Positions 6,133 to 34,518 of a stretch of DNA of 34,518 nt are shown piece after piece; the stretch's first letter is position 1, and each line of letters starts with the position of its first letter. The notes beneath the pieces are model-generated. The model saw only the letters and a program-made list of their open reading frames with translations. It was not told the origin of the DNA and made no database searches. Both the position numbers and the translations under genes were made by a program. This DNA comes from Thiobacillaceae bacterium (GTDB lineage Bacteria; Pseudomonadota; Gammaproteobacteria; Burkholderiales; Thiobacillaceae): assembly GCA_049592895.1 (NCBI GenBank), contig JBAWGM010000070.1:1-34518 (forward strand), written 5' to 3'.

Positions 6133-9100
6133 TCAAGCCGCTTTCAGCAGTTCGTCGATAAGCAGCGGCATTCCGGTATGGAAGCCCTGTACAAAGTCCA
6201 CCCCGATCTCCCTCAGTTTCTCCAGGGTCTCCTCATTCTCTACCGACTCGGCGATGGTCTTGATGCCGAGAAAGCGGCTGGTTTCGTTCATCGAGGACAC
6301 CAAGGCCACATCGACCTCATTCCGGAGCATGTCGCGGACAAACGAGCCGTCAATCTTGAGGTAATCCAACTTGAGTTTCTTCAGGTAAGAATAGGAGGAG
6401 AAGCCCACGCCGAAATCATCCAGCGAGAAGCGGCATCCATAGCGCCGCAGATGACGGATAAATTCTTCCGCATGGGCGAAGTTGTCAATCGCAGCGCTTT
6501 CAGTGATCTCGAAGATGAGTTTGTGGCCAGGGATGTCGCCCTTGTCCAGCTCCGCGACGACAAAATCAAAAAAGGCTTTGCTGCCGATCGACTGGCCCGA
6601 AATGTTGATGGCAAAGCTGCCGATGTTTTCGAACCCTTCGGCATGGCGGCGGATCCACTCGAATACCGTTTCCAGCACCCAGCGGTCAAGCTCGTTCCCG
6701 CGCTTGAGCCGCTCAACCGAAGCGACAAACTCGCCGATATTGAAGCGTTCCTCGGAACCGGCCGGCGAGCCCAGCAGGATTTCAAAATGGGCGGCAGCGC
6801 CGGACACATTGCCGATCGGCAGGATAGGTTGGCAGCGCAGCGTAAGATAATTGCCGTCAGCCAGCACACTGTTTATCTGGTTAGACCAGTAAGCCAGACC
6901 GCCTTCATGCAGGCGTGCCAGATCGTCCTCGCGATACATCACAAGCTGGTTGCGCCCAGCGTGTTTGGAGGATATGCAGGCCTCATCCGCCTCGGCGTAA
7001 AGTCCATCCGGATCCAGGCAATCCACTGACCACGCCAGGCCGATATTGACCGTCAGAGGATATTTCTCCCCCTTCCAGACGAAGTTGAACTTGTTCACCT
7101 GGGTAATCAATTGCTCGGTCTGATCCAGCGCGGCCTCATGGTTGTCGGCCTTGAGCATGAAGGCGAAAATCCGCTCGCCGCTACGGGCAAATAGTTCCGG
7201 GTCTGGCAGGCTGCTCTTAAGATATTCGGCCAGCTGCAGCAGCAGGGTGCTCCTGCCCTCATCATCCAGTTGCGTCTGATACAGCCGCAAGTCCTCAAAA
7301 TCCATCACCCCGATGGCGAAGCCGAAATCGCCCGTCCCGGCGCGTAGCCAGGTATGGCGAACCCGGCGCATGAACTCCTTCTGCCAAATGACTCCGGTTA
7401 CCGGGTCAAGAACCGCCTGCCGCATCAGGCTGCGATGCATGTGCTGGACCATCGAACTCAAGGAACGATCGACAAGCGGCAACTGCAAGCTGTCGGTGTG
7501 TTTGAAGGACCCGTCTGCCAGAATGGAAGCGAGCTCGCCGGGCTTGGCGTCGAACTTTTTGACACCGCGGTAATTGGCGAACACGTAGAGCACGGGATCG
7601 TCGCCTATCCAAACCAGATTAAGCGGTTCGGAAAATTTCTCCGCTGTGAACCAATCGCCCACCTGAATCCGGTCAAGCTGGCTCCTTGCCTCTTCAGACA
7701 ATTCCGCCGCGCTGGCTTCGTTCGTGCTGCCGGGCTTAAGGGTCGTGTAGCTGAGTTTGGATCGGTCCTTGGCGTATAGCAAGTGTTCGGCCAGACGGTC
7801 AACCACGCGCTCCTGTCCCTCCCGGTCCGCACTGACGACGGCCAGATGCGTATCCAGATATTGCAACAAGCGATGGGCCTGCTGCCGGCTGATTTCCGCC
7901 CCGGAGTCTGCGTCCAGCCAGTCCAGCAATTGGTCGAGTGCCCCCCAGGCCTGCATTCTCTCATCGTCGTCCTCGGGTTTGCGCAGCAGCCCCCGGGTCA
8001 AGTAGTTGCGCCAGCCATTATTGAGCAGATCTAGCACCACCGTGGGAACGGGCTTGCCTTCCACGCGTTGCTCAATGCTGCGCGTGACGGAGCGCTTGGC
8101 CTGACTGGTTTTTTGCCAACCTTCGAGGGCTTCCTGCAATCGCGCAATCCGCGCGAGCCGGCCTCTCAGCAGGGGCTCCAGCACCTTTTCCAATTGGGCC
8201 CGGGCTTCGTCATAGATAGCCGGATTCGTAGCAGACTCGGCGCGGATGCGCTCGGTCCAGCGATTGATGAGCTTGAGCAGGTTCTCATCCTTGACCTGAC
8301 CCTGGTCGCTGGACACCATGGAGAGTCGGTCTATTGCATTAAGCGCGCGCTGCGCCGGGTGCCGGGGCGAGTTGAAAAAGCTGGCATCCTGTATAGCCAG
8401 CTTGAGCAGCGGTTCTTCCAGCCGCTTGAGAAAGGGTCTGATCTGGGCGGCAATGGAGCGCTGCGCGTCCATGGCTGAGACCAGGGCACTGAATACCGCC
8501 ACCGAACCCTGGACTTCCGCTTCCCTGCCTGCCGGAATGGCACCAGCGGCCGCCATTTCCTGTAACACCTTGGCGGCATAAGGCAGGACAGCATCGGTCA
8601 TGATCTCCGGAGAACCGGGGCCGGCTGGCGCCGCGGGCACGTTGCGACGAACCAAGCCCATCAGGGCCTGCGCCATGAGGCCCATGGTGAGCTGGGGCGC
8701 ACCCAGCTCCTGCTGCGAACCTGCGCCGGAACCGGGGACACGGGCATCGTGCGTGGACTTGGGCCTGACGCCCAATTCCGTCTCGGGCAATATCTCGTCG
8801 AGCTTCTGGTAAAGCGTGCCCAGGGGCTCCTGCATGGCTTCCCTCAGTGCCAGATAAGCTATCGGCCGGACCTTGCCGGCCCGGTCGACGGATTCCAGCG
8901 CCGTCATGAAGATACGGAATTGGGCGGTGGGGCCGTAGGGATTCACCCCTGCGTCCAGGGCGCAACCATAGAGTTGCTCCAACCTGGGCTCCAGCGCATT
9001 GAGTTCGCCTTGGTAGCGGTCTTCCAGTTTGCCAGCCTCGGAAGTTGCGTTGAGCCAGTCCTCAAATTCGTCCTTGTCAACGATACGCAGTTCATCGGTT

Positions 9101-9780
9101 TCAGCCGGTGCCTCAACTGCGAATTGACCAGATTCAAGCTTTCTGACTTCGGCAACGATGCCCTGCCGAAAAGCTGCCCCGACCCGCTGAAAATTGACCT
9201 CAAAATCACGTGCCGCCTGCAACAGCGCGGTACGCTCGGCAAGGCTATCAGCGCTCGATGAAGCCGCACTCAGCTTGTCCGCGATGGATTCGCCAAACTG
9301 CTGAACCGCAACTTCCATAGCGTCGATCAACAGCGCCCGGGCCGCCTCCCGAACACCTTCGTTGCCTCCCTCGGGATGGAGATTGGCGACAATCCGCTGG
9401 GCGCGGGCAGCGATGGCCACCTTGTGCAAGGCCCGGGTTGCATCGCGCAAGGTTTCGCGAAACGCCACTCCCACGCCATTGGGTGTAGAGCGCACGAGGG
9501 TGGCCGTCATTTCGTAGGTTCGAAGGCTGATCAACGGGGGGGGCGTAAAAGCCACCTTGACTTCCTGGCCCTCAAACCTCGCGGCATAGCTTGCATCGTC
9601 GGACGCATTGAGGCGCAGATACAAGCCGCCCGCGCAATAGTCCTGGATTTCGCACGCAAGGTCCTCGCGCTCCCCAACGGAGAGCCGTGCCTGCTGGGAA
9701 ATGGCGTAGCGAATCTTCCGTCTTTGCTCGGGCCGGCTTTCGCTCTCAGGTGTGAGATCTTCTGGCGTCACTAAAGGCAT
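6133..9780 (-). CDS. Multidomain c-di-GMP signalling protein: N-terminal PilZ, a DUF1631-like central region, a degenerate GGDEF domain and a C-terminal EAL phosphodiesterase domain
   Basis: 1215 aa with GGAGGA 8 nt upstream of the ATG. PilZ motifs: RRKIR (RxxxR) and DYCAGG (DxSxxG with S to C). Central FFNSPRHPAQRALN is DUF1631-like. The GGDEF position reads SGERI and there is no RxxD I-site. EAL motifs: FEILLG, NISG, EITES, DDFGVGFSSYSYL, KIDGSF, ESVE, QG. Confidence 0.85.
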   Translation of the reverse strand: MPLVTPEDLTPESESRPEQRRKIRYAISQQARLSVGEREDLACEIQDYCAGGLYLRLNASDDASYAARFEGQEVKVAFTPPPLISLRTYEMTATLVRSTPNGVGVAFRETLRDATRALHKVAIAARAQRIVANLHPEGGNEGVREAARALLIDAMEVAVQQFGESIADKLSAASSSADSLAERTALLQAARDFEVNFQRVGAAFRQGIVAEVRKLESGQFAVEAPAETDELRIVDKDEFEDWLNATSEAGKLEDRYQGELNALEPRLEQLYGCALDAGVNPYGPTAQFRIFMTALESVDRAGKVRPIAYLALREAMQEPLGTLYQKLDEILPETELGVRPKSTHDARVPGSGAGSQQELGAPQLTMGLMAQALMGLVRRNVPAAPAGPGSPEIMTDAVLPYAAKVLQEMAAAGAIPAGREAEVQGSVAVFSALVSAMDAQRSIAAQIRPFLKRLEEPLLKLAIQDASFFNSPRHPAQRALNAIDRLSMVSSDQGQVKDENLLKLINRWTERIRAESATNPAIYDEARAQLEKVLEPLLRGRLARIARLQEALEGWQKTSQAKRSVTRSIEQRVEGKPVPTVVLDLLNNGWRNYLTRGLLRKPEDDDERMQAWGALDQLLDWLDADSGAEISRQQAHRLLQYLDTHLAVVSADREGQERVVDRLAEHLLYAKDRSKLSYTTLKPGSTNEASAAELSEEARSQLDRIQVGDWFTAEKFSEPLNLVWIGDDPVLYVFANYRGVKKFDAKPGELASILADGSFKHTDSLQLPLVDRSLSSMVQHMHRSLMRQAVLDPVTGVIWQKEFMRRVRHTWLRAGTGDFGFAIGVMDFEDLRLYQTQLDDEGRSTLLLQLAEYLKSSLPDPELFARSGERIFAFMLKADNHEAALDQTEQLITQVNKFNFVWKGEKYPLTVNIGLAWSVDCLDPDGLYAEADEACISSKHAGRNQLVMYREDDLARLHEGGLAYWSNQINSVLADGNYLTLRCQPILPIGNVSGAAAHFEILLGSPAGSEERFNIGEFVASVERLKRGNELDRWVLETVFEWIRRHAEGFENIGSFAINISGQSIGSKAFFDFVVAELDKGDIPGHKLIFEITESAAIDNFAHAEEFIRHLRRYGCRFSLDDFGVGFSSYSYLKKLKLDYLKIDGSFVRDMLRNEVDVALVSSMNETSRFLGIKTIAESVENEETLEKLREIGVDFVQGFHTGMPLLIDELLKAA

Positions 9781-33793: not shown

Positions 33794-33878
<85 letters not shown>

Positions 33879-33919: not shown

Positions 33920-34066
33920 ACCTCTTTCCATCCCTAGTCTGCGTTTCAGAGTTTCTCTCCGTCTATGCGGGAAAACCAACTGGAAAGCCGTTCCTTAACC
34001 GCTATGTGTAATCAAAGACGCGTTGCAAATCTTTCGCTGCCGGAGGCCCAAAGCGGACTTGATAAC

Positions 34067-34348
34067 TCACCGGGTGCGCGCCACTTGTTTGCCGCGCGCT
34101 CTTGCTAGCGACTTGTCCAGCCGTTTGAGCATTTCGTCAGAGGAGACATATGGTCCGGATCGCCTCGCATCTTCACGCGCAGCCAGCCCCCGCGCAATGA
34201 ATTCTCGCTGTGCCTCACGGTGCTCGATGCTCAAACGCACAGCTTCCAGCACAAAGCCCGACAAGGTCTCGCCTTCCTCCAAAACCGATTCAGCCGCCGC
34301 CCGCAGCGCGCTATCCACCCGCAAGGGGAGCAAAGTGGCGTTCTTCAT
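34067..34348 (-). CDS. Ribbon-helix-helix (CopG/Arc/RelB-DinJ-like) antitoxin-type DNA-binding protein, with no adjacent toxin gene
   Basis: 93 aa from ATG 34348, with AAAGGGGA SD 5 nt upstream. LPLRVDSALRAAAESVLEEGETLSGFVLEAVRL fits the RHH beta-alpha-alpha pattern. The ORF extension to 34465 runs through the operator and the repeat. Confidence 0.7.
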   Translation of the reverse strand: MKNATLLPLRVDSALRAAAESVLEEGETLSGFVLEAVRLSIEHREAQREFIARGLAAREDARRSGPYVSSDEMLKRLDKSLARARGKQVARTR

Positions 34349-34360
34349 GACGTCCCCTTT

Positions 34361-34382
34361 CTGTATCGCATATGCGATACAG
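34361..34382. promoter_or_regulatory. Perfect 22-bp palindrome, candidate operator for the RHH protein
   Basis: CTGTATCGCATATGCGATACAG is self-complementary over all 22 nt. It lies 13-34 nt upstream of the RHH start codon. Confidence 0.6.
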
Positions 34383-34410
34383 CGTAGCGGCCACCCATCC
34401 CGCAAGCAAG

Positions 34411-34518
34411 CATTCCGCGCCCGGCCTTGCGGTCGGGCGATGCCGCCTTCTCTTGATCTATCCATAGCTTTGATTGCTTGGTTTCAATCCGCGCCCGGCC
34501 TTGCGGTCGGGCGATGCC
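34411..34518 (-). CRISPR. Probable trailer end of a CRISPR array: one degenerate terminal repeat, one 36-nt spacer and one repeat cut by the window edge
   Basis: The 34-mer CA(T/A)TCCGCGCCCGGCCTTGCGGTCGGGCGATGCC occurs at 34411-34444 and 34485-34518, a 74-nt period. The second copy extends to GTTTCAATCC..., whose reverse complement ends GGATTGAAAC. The internal stem pairs CGCCCGGCC with GGTCGGGCG. Only two copies are visible. Confidence 0.55.

What the first reader, a model, noticed from the sequence alone, without database searches (positions are those of the whole stretch)
34411..34518. Probable CRISPR array trailer running off the right edge of the window
Two copies of a 34-nt sequence with one mismatch lie 74 nt apart. 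The complete-looking copy starts GTTTCAATCC. On the minus strand the repeat therefore reads about GCATCGCCCGACCGCAAGGCCGGGCGCGGATTGAAAC (37 nt). That form has a 9-bp internal hairpin and the ATTGAAAC 3' handle typical of many type I (I-C, I-G) and type III repeats. The inner copy (34411-34444) is degenerate exactly in the handle nucleotides (GGAATGCTTG instead of GGATTGAAAC), as expected for the last repeat at the trailer end. The intervening 36 nt (34445-34480) are unrelated, AT-richer sequence of spacer-like length. If this is correct, the leader, the rest of the array and possibly cas genes lie just beyond nt 34518.
Basis: partly seen in the sequence, partly recalled or inferred. Interest (0 to 1): 0.7.

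Follow-up and report, generated by a model that had tools for sequence, protein, structure and literature searches.

The report
Tail end of short CRISPR array
The two repeats at the right edge of the window are the last two repeats of a real but very short type I-C CRISPR array, and near-identical public contigs show its neighbouring cas operon broken by an insertion sequence, so this is an ordinary and probably decaying immune locus.

Summary

- **What is in the window (minus strand):** a degenerate terminal repeat (34407-34443), one 37-nt spacer (34444-34480) and an intact 37-nt repeat (34481-34517). The intact repeat matches Rfam CRISPR-DR9 above its gathering score.
- **What lies beyond the edge:** four public contigs are 97.5-99.8% identical to the window. 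They run cas2, a ~180-nt leader, the array, then the window's antitoxin gene, with type I-C genes (cas8c, cas7, cas4, cas1c, cas2) upstream.
- **First qualification:** the "rest of the array" is almost nothing. Sister contigs hold 2 or 3 repeats in total.
- **Second qualification:** in those contigs an IS1634-family element replaces most of cas3, all of cas5c and the 5' end of cas8c. The locus therefore cannot process crRNA or carry out interference on its own.
- **Other results:** no protospacer was found. A sister repeat (2 nt different) forms arrays of up to 116 repeats in metagenomes.

This is a known kind of element and of low interest. One base (34518) disagrees with every sister contig and is unexplained.

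The parts
34407..34443 (-). Terminal (trailer-end) CRISPR repeat, degenerate in its last 7 nt: GCATCGCCCGACCGCAAGGCCGGGCGCGGAATGCTTG
   Evidence: It aligns in register with the intact repeats. It scores 26.6 bits against Rfam CRISPR-DR9, below the gathering score of 45, because the 3' handle is lost.
34444..34480 (-). Spacer, 37 nt: CAAGCAATCAAAGCTATGGATAGATCAAGAGAAGGCG. It is the oldest (trailer-proximal) spacer and is conserved in all sister contigs.
   Evidence: It is identical in L001-L004. No match was found in phages, plasmids or viral contigs. No self-target with up to 8 mismatches and no partial match of 11 nt or more was found in the window or the loci.
34481..34517 (-). Intact 37-nt CRISPR repeat: GCATCGCCCGACCGCAAGGCCGGGCGCGGATTGAAAC
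   Evidence: It matches Rfam RF01322 CRISPR-DR9 at 48.5 bits (gathering score 45), model positions 1-37 of 37, on the minus strand (same result on L001). The hairpin spans positions 5-26 and is followed by 11 nt, CGGAUUGAAAC.
34518..34518 (-). One base upstream of the intact repeat (G on the crRNA strand). It belongs to an unseen spacer, to the leader, or to an assembly-end artefact.
   Evidence: Alignments to all sister contigs stop at 34517. The sisters have A (last leader base, L002 and L003) or T (end of an extra 34-nt spacer, L001 and L004) at this position.
34361..34382 (.). Trailer-side flank: a perfect 22-nt palindrome, CTGTATCGCATATGCGATACAG, between the terminal repeat and the ribosome-binding site of the next gene. 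It is not part of the array and is a likely operator.
   Evidence: Read directly from the sequence. Its function is inferred.
34067..34348 (-). The first gene downstream of the array, a 93-aa YlcI/YnfO-family (antitoxin-like) protein. It marks the trailer boundary and served as the anchor for finding the sister contigs.
   Evidence: It matches NCBIfam NF041551 at 49 bits (cutoff 30). The exact protein was found on 4 public contigs.

Best explanation
The window ends inside the trailer end of a genuine but very short type I-C CRISPR array, transcribed on the window's minus strand. In the same bacterial population the order is: WYL regulator, cas3 stub, IS1634-family element, truncated cas8c, cas7, an inserted ParE toxin-antitoxin pair, cas4, cas1c, cas2, a ~180-nt leader, 2-3 repeats, the YlcI-like gene, tRNA-Leu, rnr.

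In an intact I-C system Cas5c would cut each repeat at the 3' base of its hairpin. That leaves an 11-nt 5' tag (CGGAUUGAAAC) on the next spacer, and the crRNA would guide Cascade and Cas3.

Here most of cas3, all of cas5c and the first ~95 codons of cas8c are replaced by the IS. The array is therefore most likely a relic. The adaptation genes (cas4, cas1, cas2) are still intact and could add spacers, but crRNA processing and interference cannot be supplied from this locus.

Shown: the repeat family, the array anatomy, the cas gene content and the IS junction in the sister contigs. Inferred: that the window's own genome has the same broken operon, and that the array is functionally inert.
For: - **Repeat copies:** confirmed and non-random.
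- **Repeat family:** the intact repeat matches Rfam CRISPR-DR9 above the gathering score, at full length, on the minus strand.
- **Repeat structure:** a hairpin followed by exactly 11 nt. This matches the Cas5d cleavage product described for type I-C (PMC5965381).
- **Extension past the edge:** four contigs carry the identical antitoxin protein and are 97.5-99.8% identical to the window over 2.5-10.5 kb. All four continue into the leader and cas2, cas1, cas4 and cas7; cas8c is near full length in three of them and reduced to a 122-aa piece in L002.
- **Subtype:** NCBIfam gives Cas1c at 480 bits (I-C-specific cutoff 385), Cas8c/Csd1 at 469 bits (cutoff 219), Cas7/Csd2 at 373 bits, plus Cas4 and Cas2.
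- **Array size:** 3 repeats with 2 spacers in L001 and L004, and 2 repeats with 1 spacer in L002 and L003. The difference lies at the leader-proximal end.
- **Operon break:** Cas8c matches only profile positions 96-583 of 588. A 66-aa stub after the WYL gene matches cas3_HD positions 1-45 (E = 7e-7) and runs in frame into an IS1634 transposase (300 bits).
- **Repeat family builds arrays:** a sister repeat differing at 2 of 37 nt forms arrays of up to 116 repeats in 3 metagenomes.
Against: - The window stops at the array, so its own cas operon was never seen.
- Base 34518 differs from all four sister contigs. The source may therefore carry a different or longer array.
- No protospacer was found for either spacer.
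- No sigma-70-like promoter was found in the leader by a simple consensus scan.
- Whether cas3 and cas5c exist elsewhere in the genome could not be tested. Only 34.5 kb on one side was examined, plus about 10 kb on the other side in the sister contigs.
Confidence: 0.85

Rival explanations
1. The array is functional. A second, complete type I-C system elsewhere in the same genome supplies Cas5c, Cas8c and Cas3 in trans. The mini-array is then processed and used for interference despite the broken local operon.
For: - The adaptation module is intact.
- The leader-proximal spacer is polymorphic between strains, which fits recent acquisition.
- Both intact repeats keep the full 3' handle.
Against: - No other copy of the exact 37-mer was found in the genome or metagenome collections, apart from this locus.
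- There are no cas3 or cas5 genes in the 34.5-kb window.
- Every repeat copy carries an A.C mismatch in the stem, relative to the family consensus.
- One sister contig (L002) shows further decay, with an IS110 before cas4 and cas8c reduced to 122 aa.
Confidence: 0.12
2. The window's own genome differs from the sister contigs. It carries a longer array beyond nt 34518, and possibly an intact cas operon. The short, broken version would then describe only related strains.
For: Base 34518 (G on the crRNA strand) matches neither the leader end (A) nor the extra spacer end (T) seen in the sisters. Spacer content is already polymorphic in this population.
Against: - The window is 99.6-99.8% identical to L002-L004 right up to nt 34517.
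- All three sister contigs that reach that far have the IS1634 junction, and the fourth contig starts exactly there.
- A single base at the end of a sequence is weak evidence.
Confidence: 0.12
3. The element is not a CRISPR array. It is a dispersed REP-like or palindromic repeat, or a regulatory CreA-like mini-CRISPR whose pseudo-spacer represses a neighbouring toxin or cas promoter.
For: There are only 2-3 copies. Toxin-antitoxin genes flank and interrupt the locus. The terminal repeat is degenerate.
Against: - The copies are not dispersed. They occur only here, regularly spaced, directly after cas2 and a leader.
- The repeat passes a curated CRISPR repeat model.
- Sister repeats build arrays of over 100 units.
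- The spacers have no partial complementarity of 11 nt or more to anything in the window or in the locus.
Confidence: 0.02

Closest known systems
Type I-C (Dvulg) CRISPR-Cas arrays, e.g. Desulfovibrio vulgaris, Bacillus halodurans, Xanthomonas oryzae
   Same: - Gene order cas8c-cas7-cas4-cas1-cas2, then leader, then array, with no cas6.
- Cas1c, Cas8c/Csd1 and Cas7/Csd2 all pass the I-C-specific models.
- The repeat has a GC-rich hairpin followed by an 11-nt tail ending in ATTGAAAC, which is the Cas5d substrate layout.
   Different: - The repeat is 37 nt, whereas the best-studied I-C repeats are about 32 nt (from my own knowledge).
- cas5c is absent, cas3 is reduced to a 60-codon stub and cas8c is truncated at its 5' end by an IS1634-family element.
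- A ParE toxin-antitoxin pair sits between cas7 and cas4.
- The array has only 1-2 spacers.
Rfam RF01322 CRISPR-DR9 repeat family
   Same: The match is full length (positions 1-37 of 37) at 48.5 bits, above the gathering score of 45. It has the same 9-position stem, a 4-nt loop and the GGAUUGAAAC tail.
   Different: The seventh stem pair is a non-canonical A.C pair. The 5' four bases and the base after the stem differ from the consensus.
Sister-repeat mega-arrays in metagenomes Ga0209721, Ga0116210 and OGCI01
   Same: The repeat has the same length and the same 23-nt 3' half, with a period of 71-74 nt.
   Different: - Two substitutions (A11 to G, which restores the pair, and G14 to T).
- Arrays of tens to 116 repeats.
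- No shared spacers, leader, trailer or cas genes on those contigs. They belong to a different locus or organism.
Type I-G (GSU0051-type) arrays
   Same: The repeats are of similar length and share the ATTGAAAC end. There is also a weak hit of the cas3 stub to Cas3g.
   Different: Cas4 and Cas1 are separate genes and fall below the Cas4g/Cas1g fusion cutoff (135 and 301 bits against 560). The large subunit is Cas8c, not Cas8u.

Membership tests
CRISPR array (generic) | Direct repeats of 23-55 nt, regularly spaced by unique spacers of similar length | tested here: met
   37-nt repeats with spacers of 34 and 37 nt. There are 2 copies in the window and 2-3 in the sister contigs.
CRISPR array (generic) | The repeat matches a curated CRISPR repeat model | tested here: met
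   RF01322 at 48.5 bits against a gathering score of 45.
CRISPR array (generic) | Adjacent cas1 and cas2 genes and a leader | tested here: met
   Met in four contigs 97.5-99.8% identical to the window. It cannot be seen in the window itself.
CRISPR array (generic) | Spacers derived from mobile elements (protospacer matches) | tested here: inconclusive
   No hit in phages, plasmids or viral contigs.
CRISPR array (generic) | Spacer content varies between strains at the leader end | tested here: met
   L001 and L004 carry one extra leader-proximal spacer compared with L002 and L003.
Type I-C CRISPR-Cas | Signature large subunit Cas8c/Csd1 | tested here: met
   TIGR01863 at 469 bits (cutoff 219), but only profile positions 96-583 of 588, so the gene is truncated at its 5' end.
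Type I-C CRISPR-Cas | Cas5c/Cas5d endoribonuclease present, with no Cas6 | tested here: not met
   No cas5 gene is called between the cas3 stub and cas8c. That space is occupied by the IS1634 element. No cas6 is present either. Whether one exists elsewhere in the genome was not testable.
Type I-C CRISPR-Cas | Cas3 helicase-nuclease | tested here: not met
   Only a ~60-codon HD-domain stub remains (TIGR01596 positions 1-45 of 178, E = 7e-7). It is fused in frame to the transposase ORF.
Type I-C CRISPR-Cas | I-C-type Cas1 with separate Cas4 and Cas2 | tested here: met
   TIGR03640 cas1_DVULG at 480 bits (cutoff 385). Cas4 (TIGR00372) scores 119 bits and Cas2 67 bits.
Type I-C CRISPR-Cas | Repeat hairpin followed by an 11-nt single-stranded tail, which becomes the 5' tag after Cas5d cleavage | tested here: met
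   The fold puts the stem at positions 5-26 with 11 nt after it. The rule is taken from PMC5965381. Actual cleavage was not tested.
Type I-G CRISPR-Cas | Fused Cas4-Cas1 (Cas4g/Cas1g) | tested here: not met
   They are separate genes. NF049935 scores 135 and 301 bits against a cutoff of 560.
REP or dispersed palindromic elements | Many scattered single copies across the genome, unrelated to cas genes | tested here: not met
   There are no other copies in the 34.5-kb window. The 23-mer gives a single unrelated hit in 185,579 reference genomes. All other occurrences are tandem arrays.
CreA-like regulatory mini-CRISPR | A pseudo-spacer partially complementary to a nearby toxin or cas promoter | tested here: not met
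   No match of 11 nt or more for either spacer in the window or in L001-L004, outside the array.

The most novel reading that the evidence does not exclude
The mini-array is kept under selection rather than simply decaying. The single spacer conserved in all strains could have a non-immune role, or the intact Cas4-Cas1-Cas2 module could keep adding spacers to an array whose effector genes were removed by an IS. The embedded and flanking toxin-antitoxin genes could stabilise the remnant.
Probability: 0.06. Interest if true: 0.4.

Novelty: new member of a known kind. Interest (0 to 1): 0.12.

Why it matters
It matters little beyond correct annotation. The right edge of the window should be labelled as the trailer end of a type I-C CRISPR array on the minus strand, not as a gene or a REP element.

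The locus is a clear example of CRISPR-Cas decay. An IS removed the effector genes, a toxin-antitoxin pair was inserted into the operon, and the array has shrunk to 1-2 spacers. Such loci are common.

The strain-level spacer polymorphism could serve as a marker for tracking this population across the metagenomes in which it occurs.

Tried and rejected
- **Spacer targets:** blastn of the window's spacer against 50,697 phage records and 72,556 plasmids gave only chance-level partial hits (E of 1 or more). Exact 23-26-mer scans of viral contigs for both spacers gave nothing. The self-target and partial-match searches were negative.
- **Reference genomes:** the scan with the repeat's 3' 23-mer gave one hit, in a Planctomycetota MAG with a different 5' half, which was uninformative. 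The gene content suggests a Gram-negative proteobacterium (inference).
- **Metagenomic sister arrays:** they have no cas genes and no leader or trailer similarity, so they say nothing about cas context.
- **More array states:** a look-up through RNase R returned only a 2.4-kb contig.
- **tRNA-integrated island:** tRNA-Leu lies next to the locus, but its 3' end is not duplicated anywhere in the locus. GC content is only slightly lower across the cas block.
- **Toxin stub:** the 22-codon ORF after the antitoxin looked like a ParE/RelE N-terminus by eye, but it has no Pfam or BLASTP support.
- **Leader promoter:** the simple sigma-70 scan found none.

Full report
**Observation.** The last 112 nt of the window contain two direct copies that share 33 of 34 bases and start 74 nt apart, at 34411-34444 and 34485-34518. 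The 29-nt core occurs nowhere else in the 34.5-kb window on either strand, even with 3 mismatches allowed, and none is expected by chance.

**Extending past the edge.** The gene next to the repeats (34067-34348, minus strand, 93 aa) was looked up by exact protein sequence, and four longer public contigs carry it. Over the shared DNA they are 99.6-99.8% identical to the window (L002, L003, L004) or 97.5% identical (L001, which is rich in indels). They therefore sample the same bacterial population.

In the orientation of the window's minus strand, all four continue as follows:
- cas4, cas1 and cas2
- a leader of about 180 nt
- the repeats
- the 93-aa gene, tRNA-Leu, rnr and rlmB

The array has 3 repeats and 2 spacers in L001 and L004, and 2 repeats and 1 spacer in L002 and L003. 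The extra unit lies at the leader-proximal end. The trailer-proximal spacer and the degenerate last repeat are identical to the window in all four.

These alignments fix the boundaries, for an element on the minus strand:
- terminal repeat: 34407-34443
- spacer: 34444-34480 (37 nt)
- intact repeat: 34481-34517
- nt 34518: a single base upstream of that repeat

**The repeat.** On the minus strand it reads GCATCGCCCGACCGCAAGGCCGGGCGCGGATTGAAAC (37 nt). It matches Rfam RF01322 (CRISPR-DR9) over all 37 model positions at 48.5 bits, against a gathering score of 45. This holds both in the window itself and in L001.

The terminal copy scores only 26.6 bits because its last 7 nt have diverged (GGAATGCTTG). 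That is the usual state of a trailer-end repeat.

The fold has a stem at positions 5-26 made of 6 bp, an A.C mismatch and 2 bp, with a GCAA loop, followed by exactly 11 unpaired nt, CGGAUUGAAAC. Rfam flags the A.C pair as the one non-canonical position in a 9-pair consensus stem.

The opposite strand folds slightly better through a G.U pair, so folding energy does not decide orientation. Four other lines of evidence do:
- the strand of the Rfam match
- the ATTGAAAC end
- the orientation of the cas genes
- the position of the degenerate repeat, distal to the leader

**Subtype.** NCBIfam scans of the L004 genes gave these results:

| Protein | Model | Bits | Cutoff |
|---|---|---|---|
| Cas1c | TIGR03640 (I-C specific) | 480 | 385 |
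| Cas8c/Csd1 | TIGR01863 | 469 | 219 |
| Cas7/Csd2 | TIGR02589 | 373 | 182 |

Cas4 and Cas2 are also present. Cas4 and Cas1 are separate genes and fail the I-G fusion model. This is type I-C. According to the review PMC5965381, a type I-C locus comprises cas3, cas5d, cas8c, cas7, cas4, cas1 and cas2, with no cas6. The same review states that Cas5d cuts at the base of the repeat hairpin and leaves an 11-nt 5' tag. The 11-nt tail seen here fits that layout exactly.

**State of the operon.** The locus is broken.
- Cas8c matches only profile positions 96-583 of 588.
- Immediately upstream lies an IS1634-family transposase (300 bits).
- Upstream of that, directly after a WYL-domain regulator gene, a 66-codon stretch matches the first 45 positions of the Cas3 HD-domain profile (E = 7e-7), including the HD motif. 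It then runs in frame into the transposase ORF.

The IS thus occupies the place of most of cas3, all of cas5c and the 5' end of cas8c. A ParE toxin-antitoxin pair sits on the opposite strand between cas7 and cas4. In L002 there is a second IS (IS110 family) in front of a shortened cas4, and cas8c is reduced to 122 aa.

Neither the 34.5-kb window nor the roughly 10 kb on the other side holds a cas3 or a cas5. The window consists of core chromosomal genes:
- tsf, pyrH, frr, uppS, cdsA, dxr, rseP, bamA, lpxD, fabZ, lpxA, lpxB and rnhB
- ppsA, glnD, map, def, rnr and rlmB

**Relatives of the repeat.** A scan of 185,579 reference genomes with the 3' 23-mer found a single unrelated hit. A metagenome scan found 74 contigs from three metagenomes. 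These are almost pure arrays of up to 116 repeats with a period of 71-74 nt.

Their repeat differs from the window's at two positions. G11 restores the ninth stem pair, and T14 lies in the loop. The exact 37-mer of the window occurs only in L001-L004. The sister arrays share no spacers, leader, trailer or cas genes with this locus. They show that the repeat family builds large arrays elsewhere, but they are not part of this locus.

**Spacers.** Neither spacer has a convincing match in phage or plasmid records or in viral contigs. Neither has a self-target or a partial match of 11 nt or more within the window or the locus.

**Interpretation.** What could not be seen from the window is that the remainder is minimal (0-1 more repeats in the sister contigs) and that the effector half of the operon has been destroyed by an IS.

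The most likely reading is a decaying type I-C locus. The adaptation genes are intact and the leader-end spacer polymorphism shows recent gain or loss, but processing and interference cannot be supplied in cis. Function through a second I-C system in trans cannot be excluded without the full genome.

**Unexplained.** Base 34518 (G on the crRNA strand) matches neither sister state, which is A for the leader end and T for the extra spacer end. The source may therefore carry a third, unseen leader-proximal spacer, or this is an end-of-sequence artefact.

**Verdict.** This is an ordinary, correctly recognised CRISPR array end. It is a new instance of a known kind and of low interest.

Noticed in passing
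window 34361-34382: A perfect 22-nt palindrome, CTGTATCGCATATGCGATACAG, lies between the terminal CRISPR repeat and the ribosome-binding site of the YlcI/YnfO-like gene. It is a plausible operator for that ribbon-helix-helix-type protein.
   Followed up: partly
window 33794-33878 (+): tRNA-Leu(CAG) lies about 190 nt from the antitoxin-like gene, with its 3' end pointing towards the cas block. No duplication of the tRNA 3' end was found anywhere in the locus and no integrase is present, so an island integrated at the tRNA is not supported.
   Followed up: yes
window 34002-34070 (-): A 22-codon ORF (VSYQVRFGPPAAKDLQRVFDYT) overlaps the stop codon of the antitoxin-like gene through GTGA. By eye it resembles the N-terminus of a ParE/RelE toxin, which would make the antitoxin an orphan. 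Pfam and BLASTP give no support, because it is too short to test.
   Followed up: yes
L004 2747-4330: A cas3 HD-domain stub of about 60 codons is fused in frame to an IS1634-family transposase ORF. The other end of the IS abuts cas8c at about profile position 96. This looks like an IS-associated deletion of cas3, cas5c and the 5' end of cas8c. The IS ends and any target-site duplication were not defined (one search found no clear terminal inverted repeats).
   Followed up: partly
L004 7024-7576 (-): A ParE toxin (PF05016) and a TIGR02574/Unstab_antitox antitoxin pair are inserted between cas7 and cas4, on the opposite strand. The pair is present in all four sister contigs.
   Followed up: partly
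L002 3162-7775: One strain shows further decay. cas8c is reduced to a 122-aa piece, and an IS110-family transposase sits in front of a shortened cas4 (164 aa against 206 aa).
   Followed up: no
L006-L079 (metagenomes Ga0209721, Ga0116210, OGCI01): More than 2,000 copies of a sister repeat occur, in at least five 5'-end variants (GCAT…, GCTT…, CAAT…, GGAT…, ACTT…). They form arrays of up to 116 repeats on one contig, and some contigs switch variant within an array. The organism and the cas context are unknown.
   Followed up: partly
L004 5922-7019: Cas7/Csd2 is 365 aa, against a 284-position profile, and matches in two stretches. This suggests an insertion of about 80 aa in the N-terminal part.
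   Followed up: no
window 6133-9780 (-): A large 1215-aa protein combines DUF1631 with GGDEF and EAL domains, so it is probably involved in cyclic-di-GMP signalling. It is unrelated to the finding.
   Followed up: no
window 34518: The last base of the window disagrees with all four sister contigs at the position just upstream of the intact repeat. This could be a third array state or an assembly-end artefact.
   Followed up: partly
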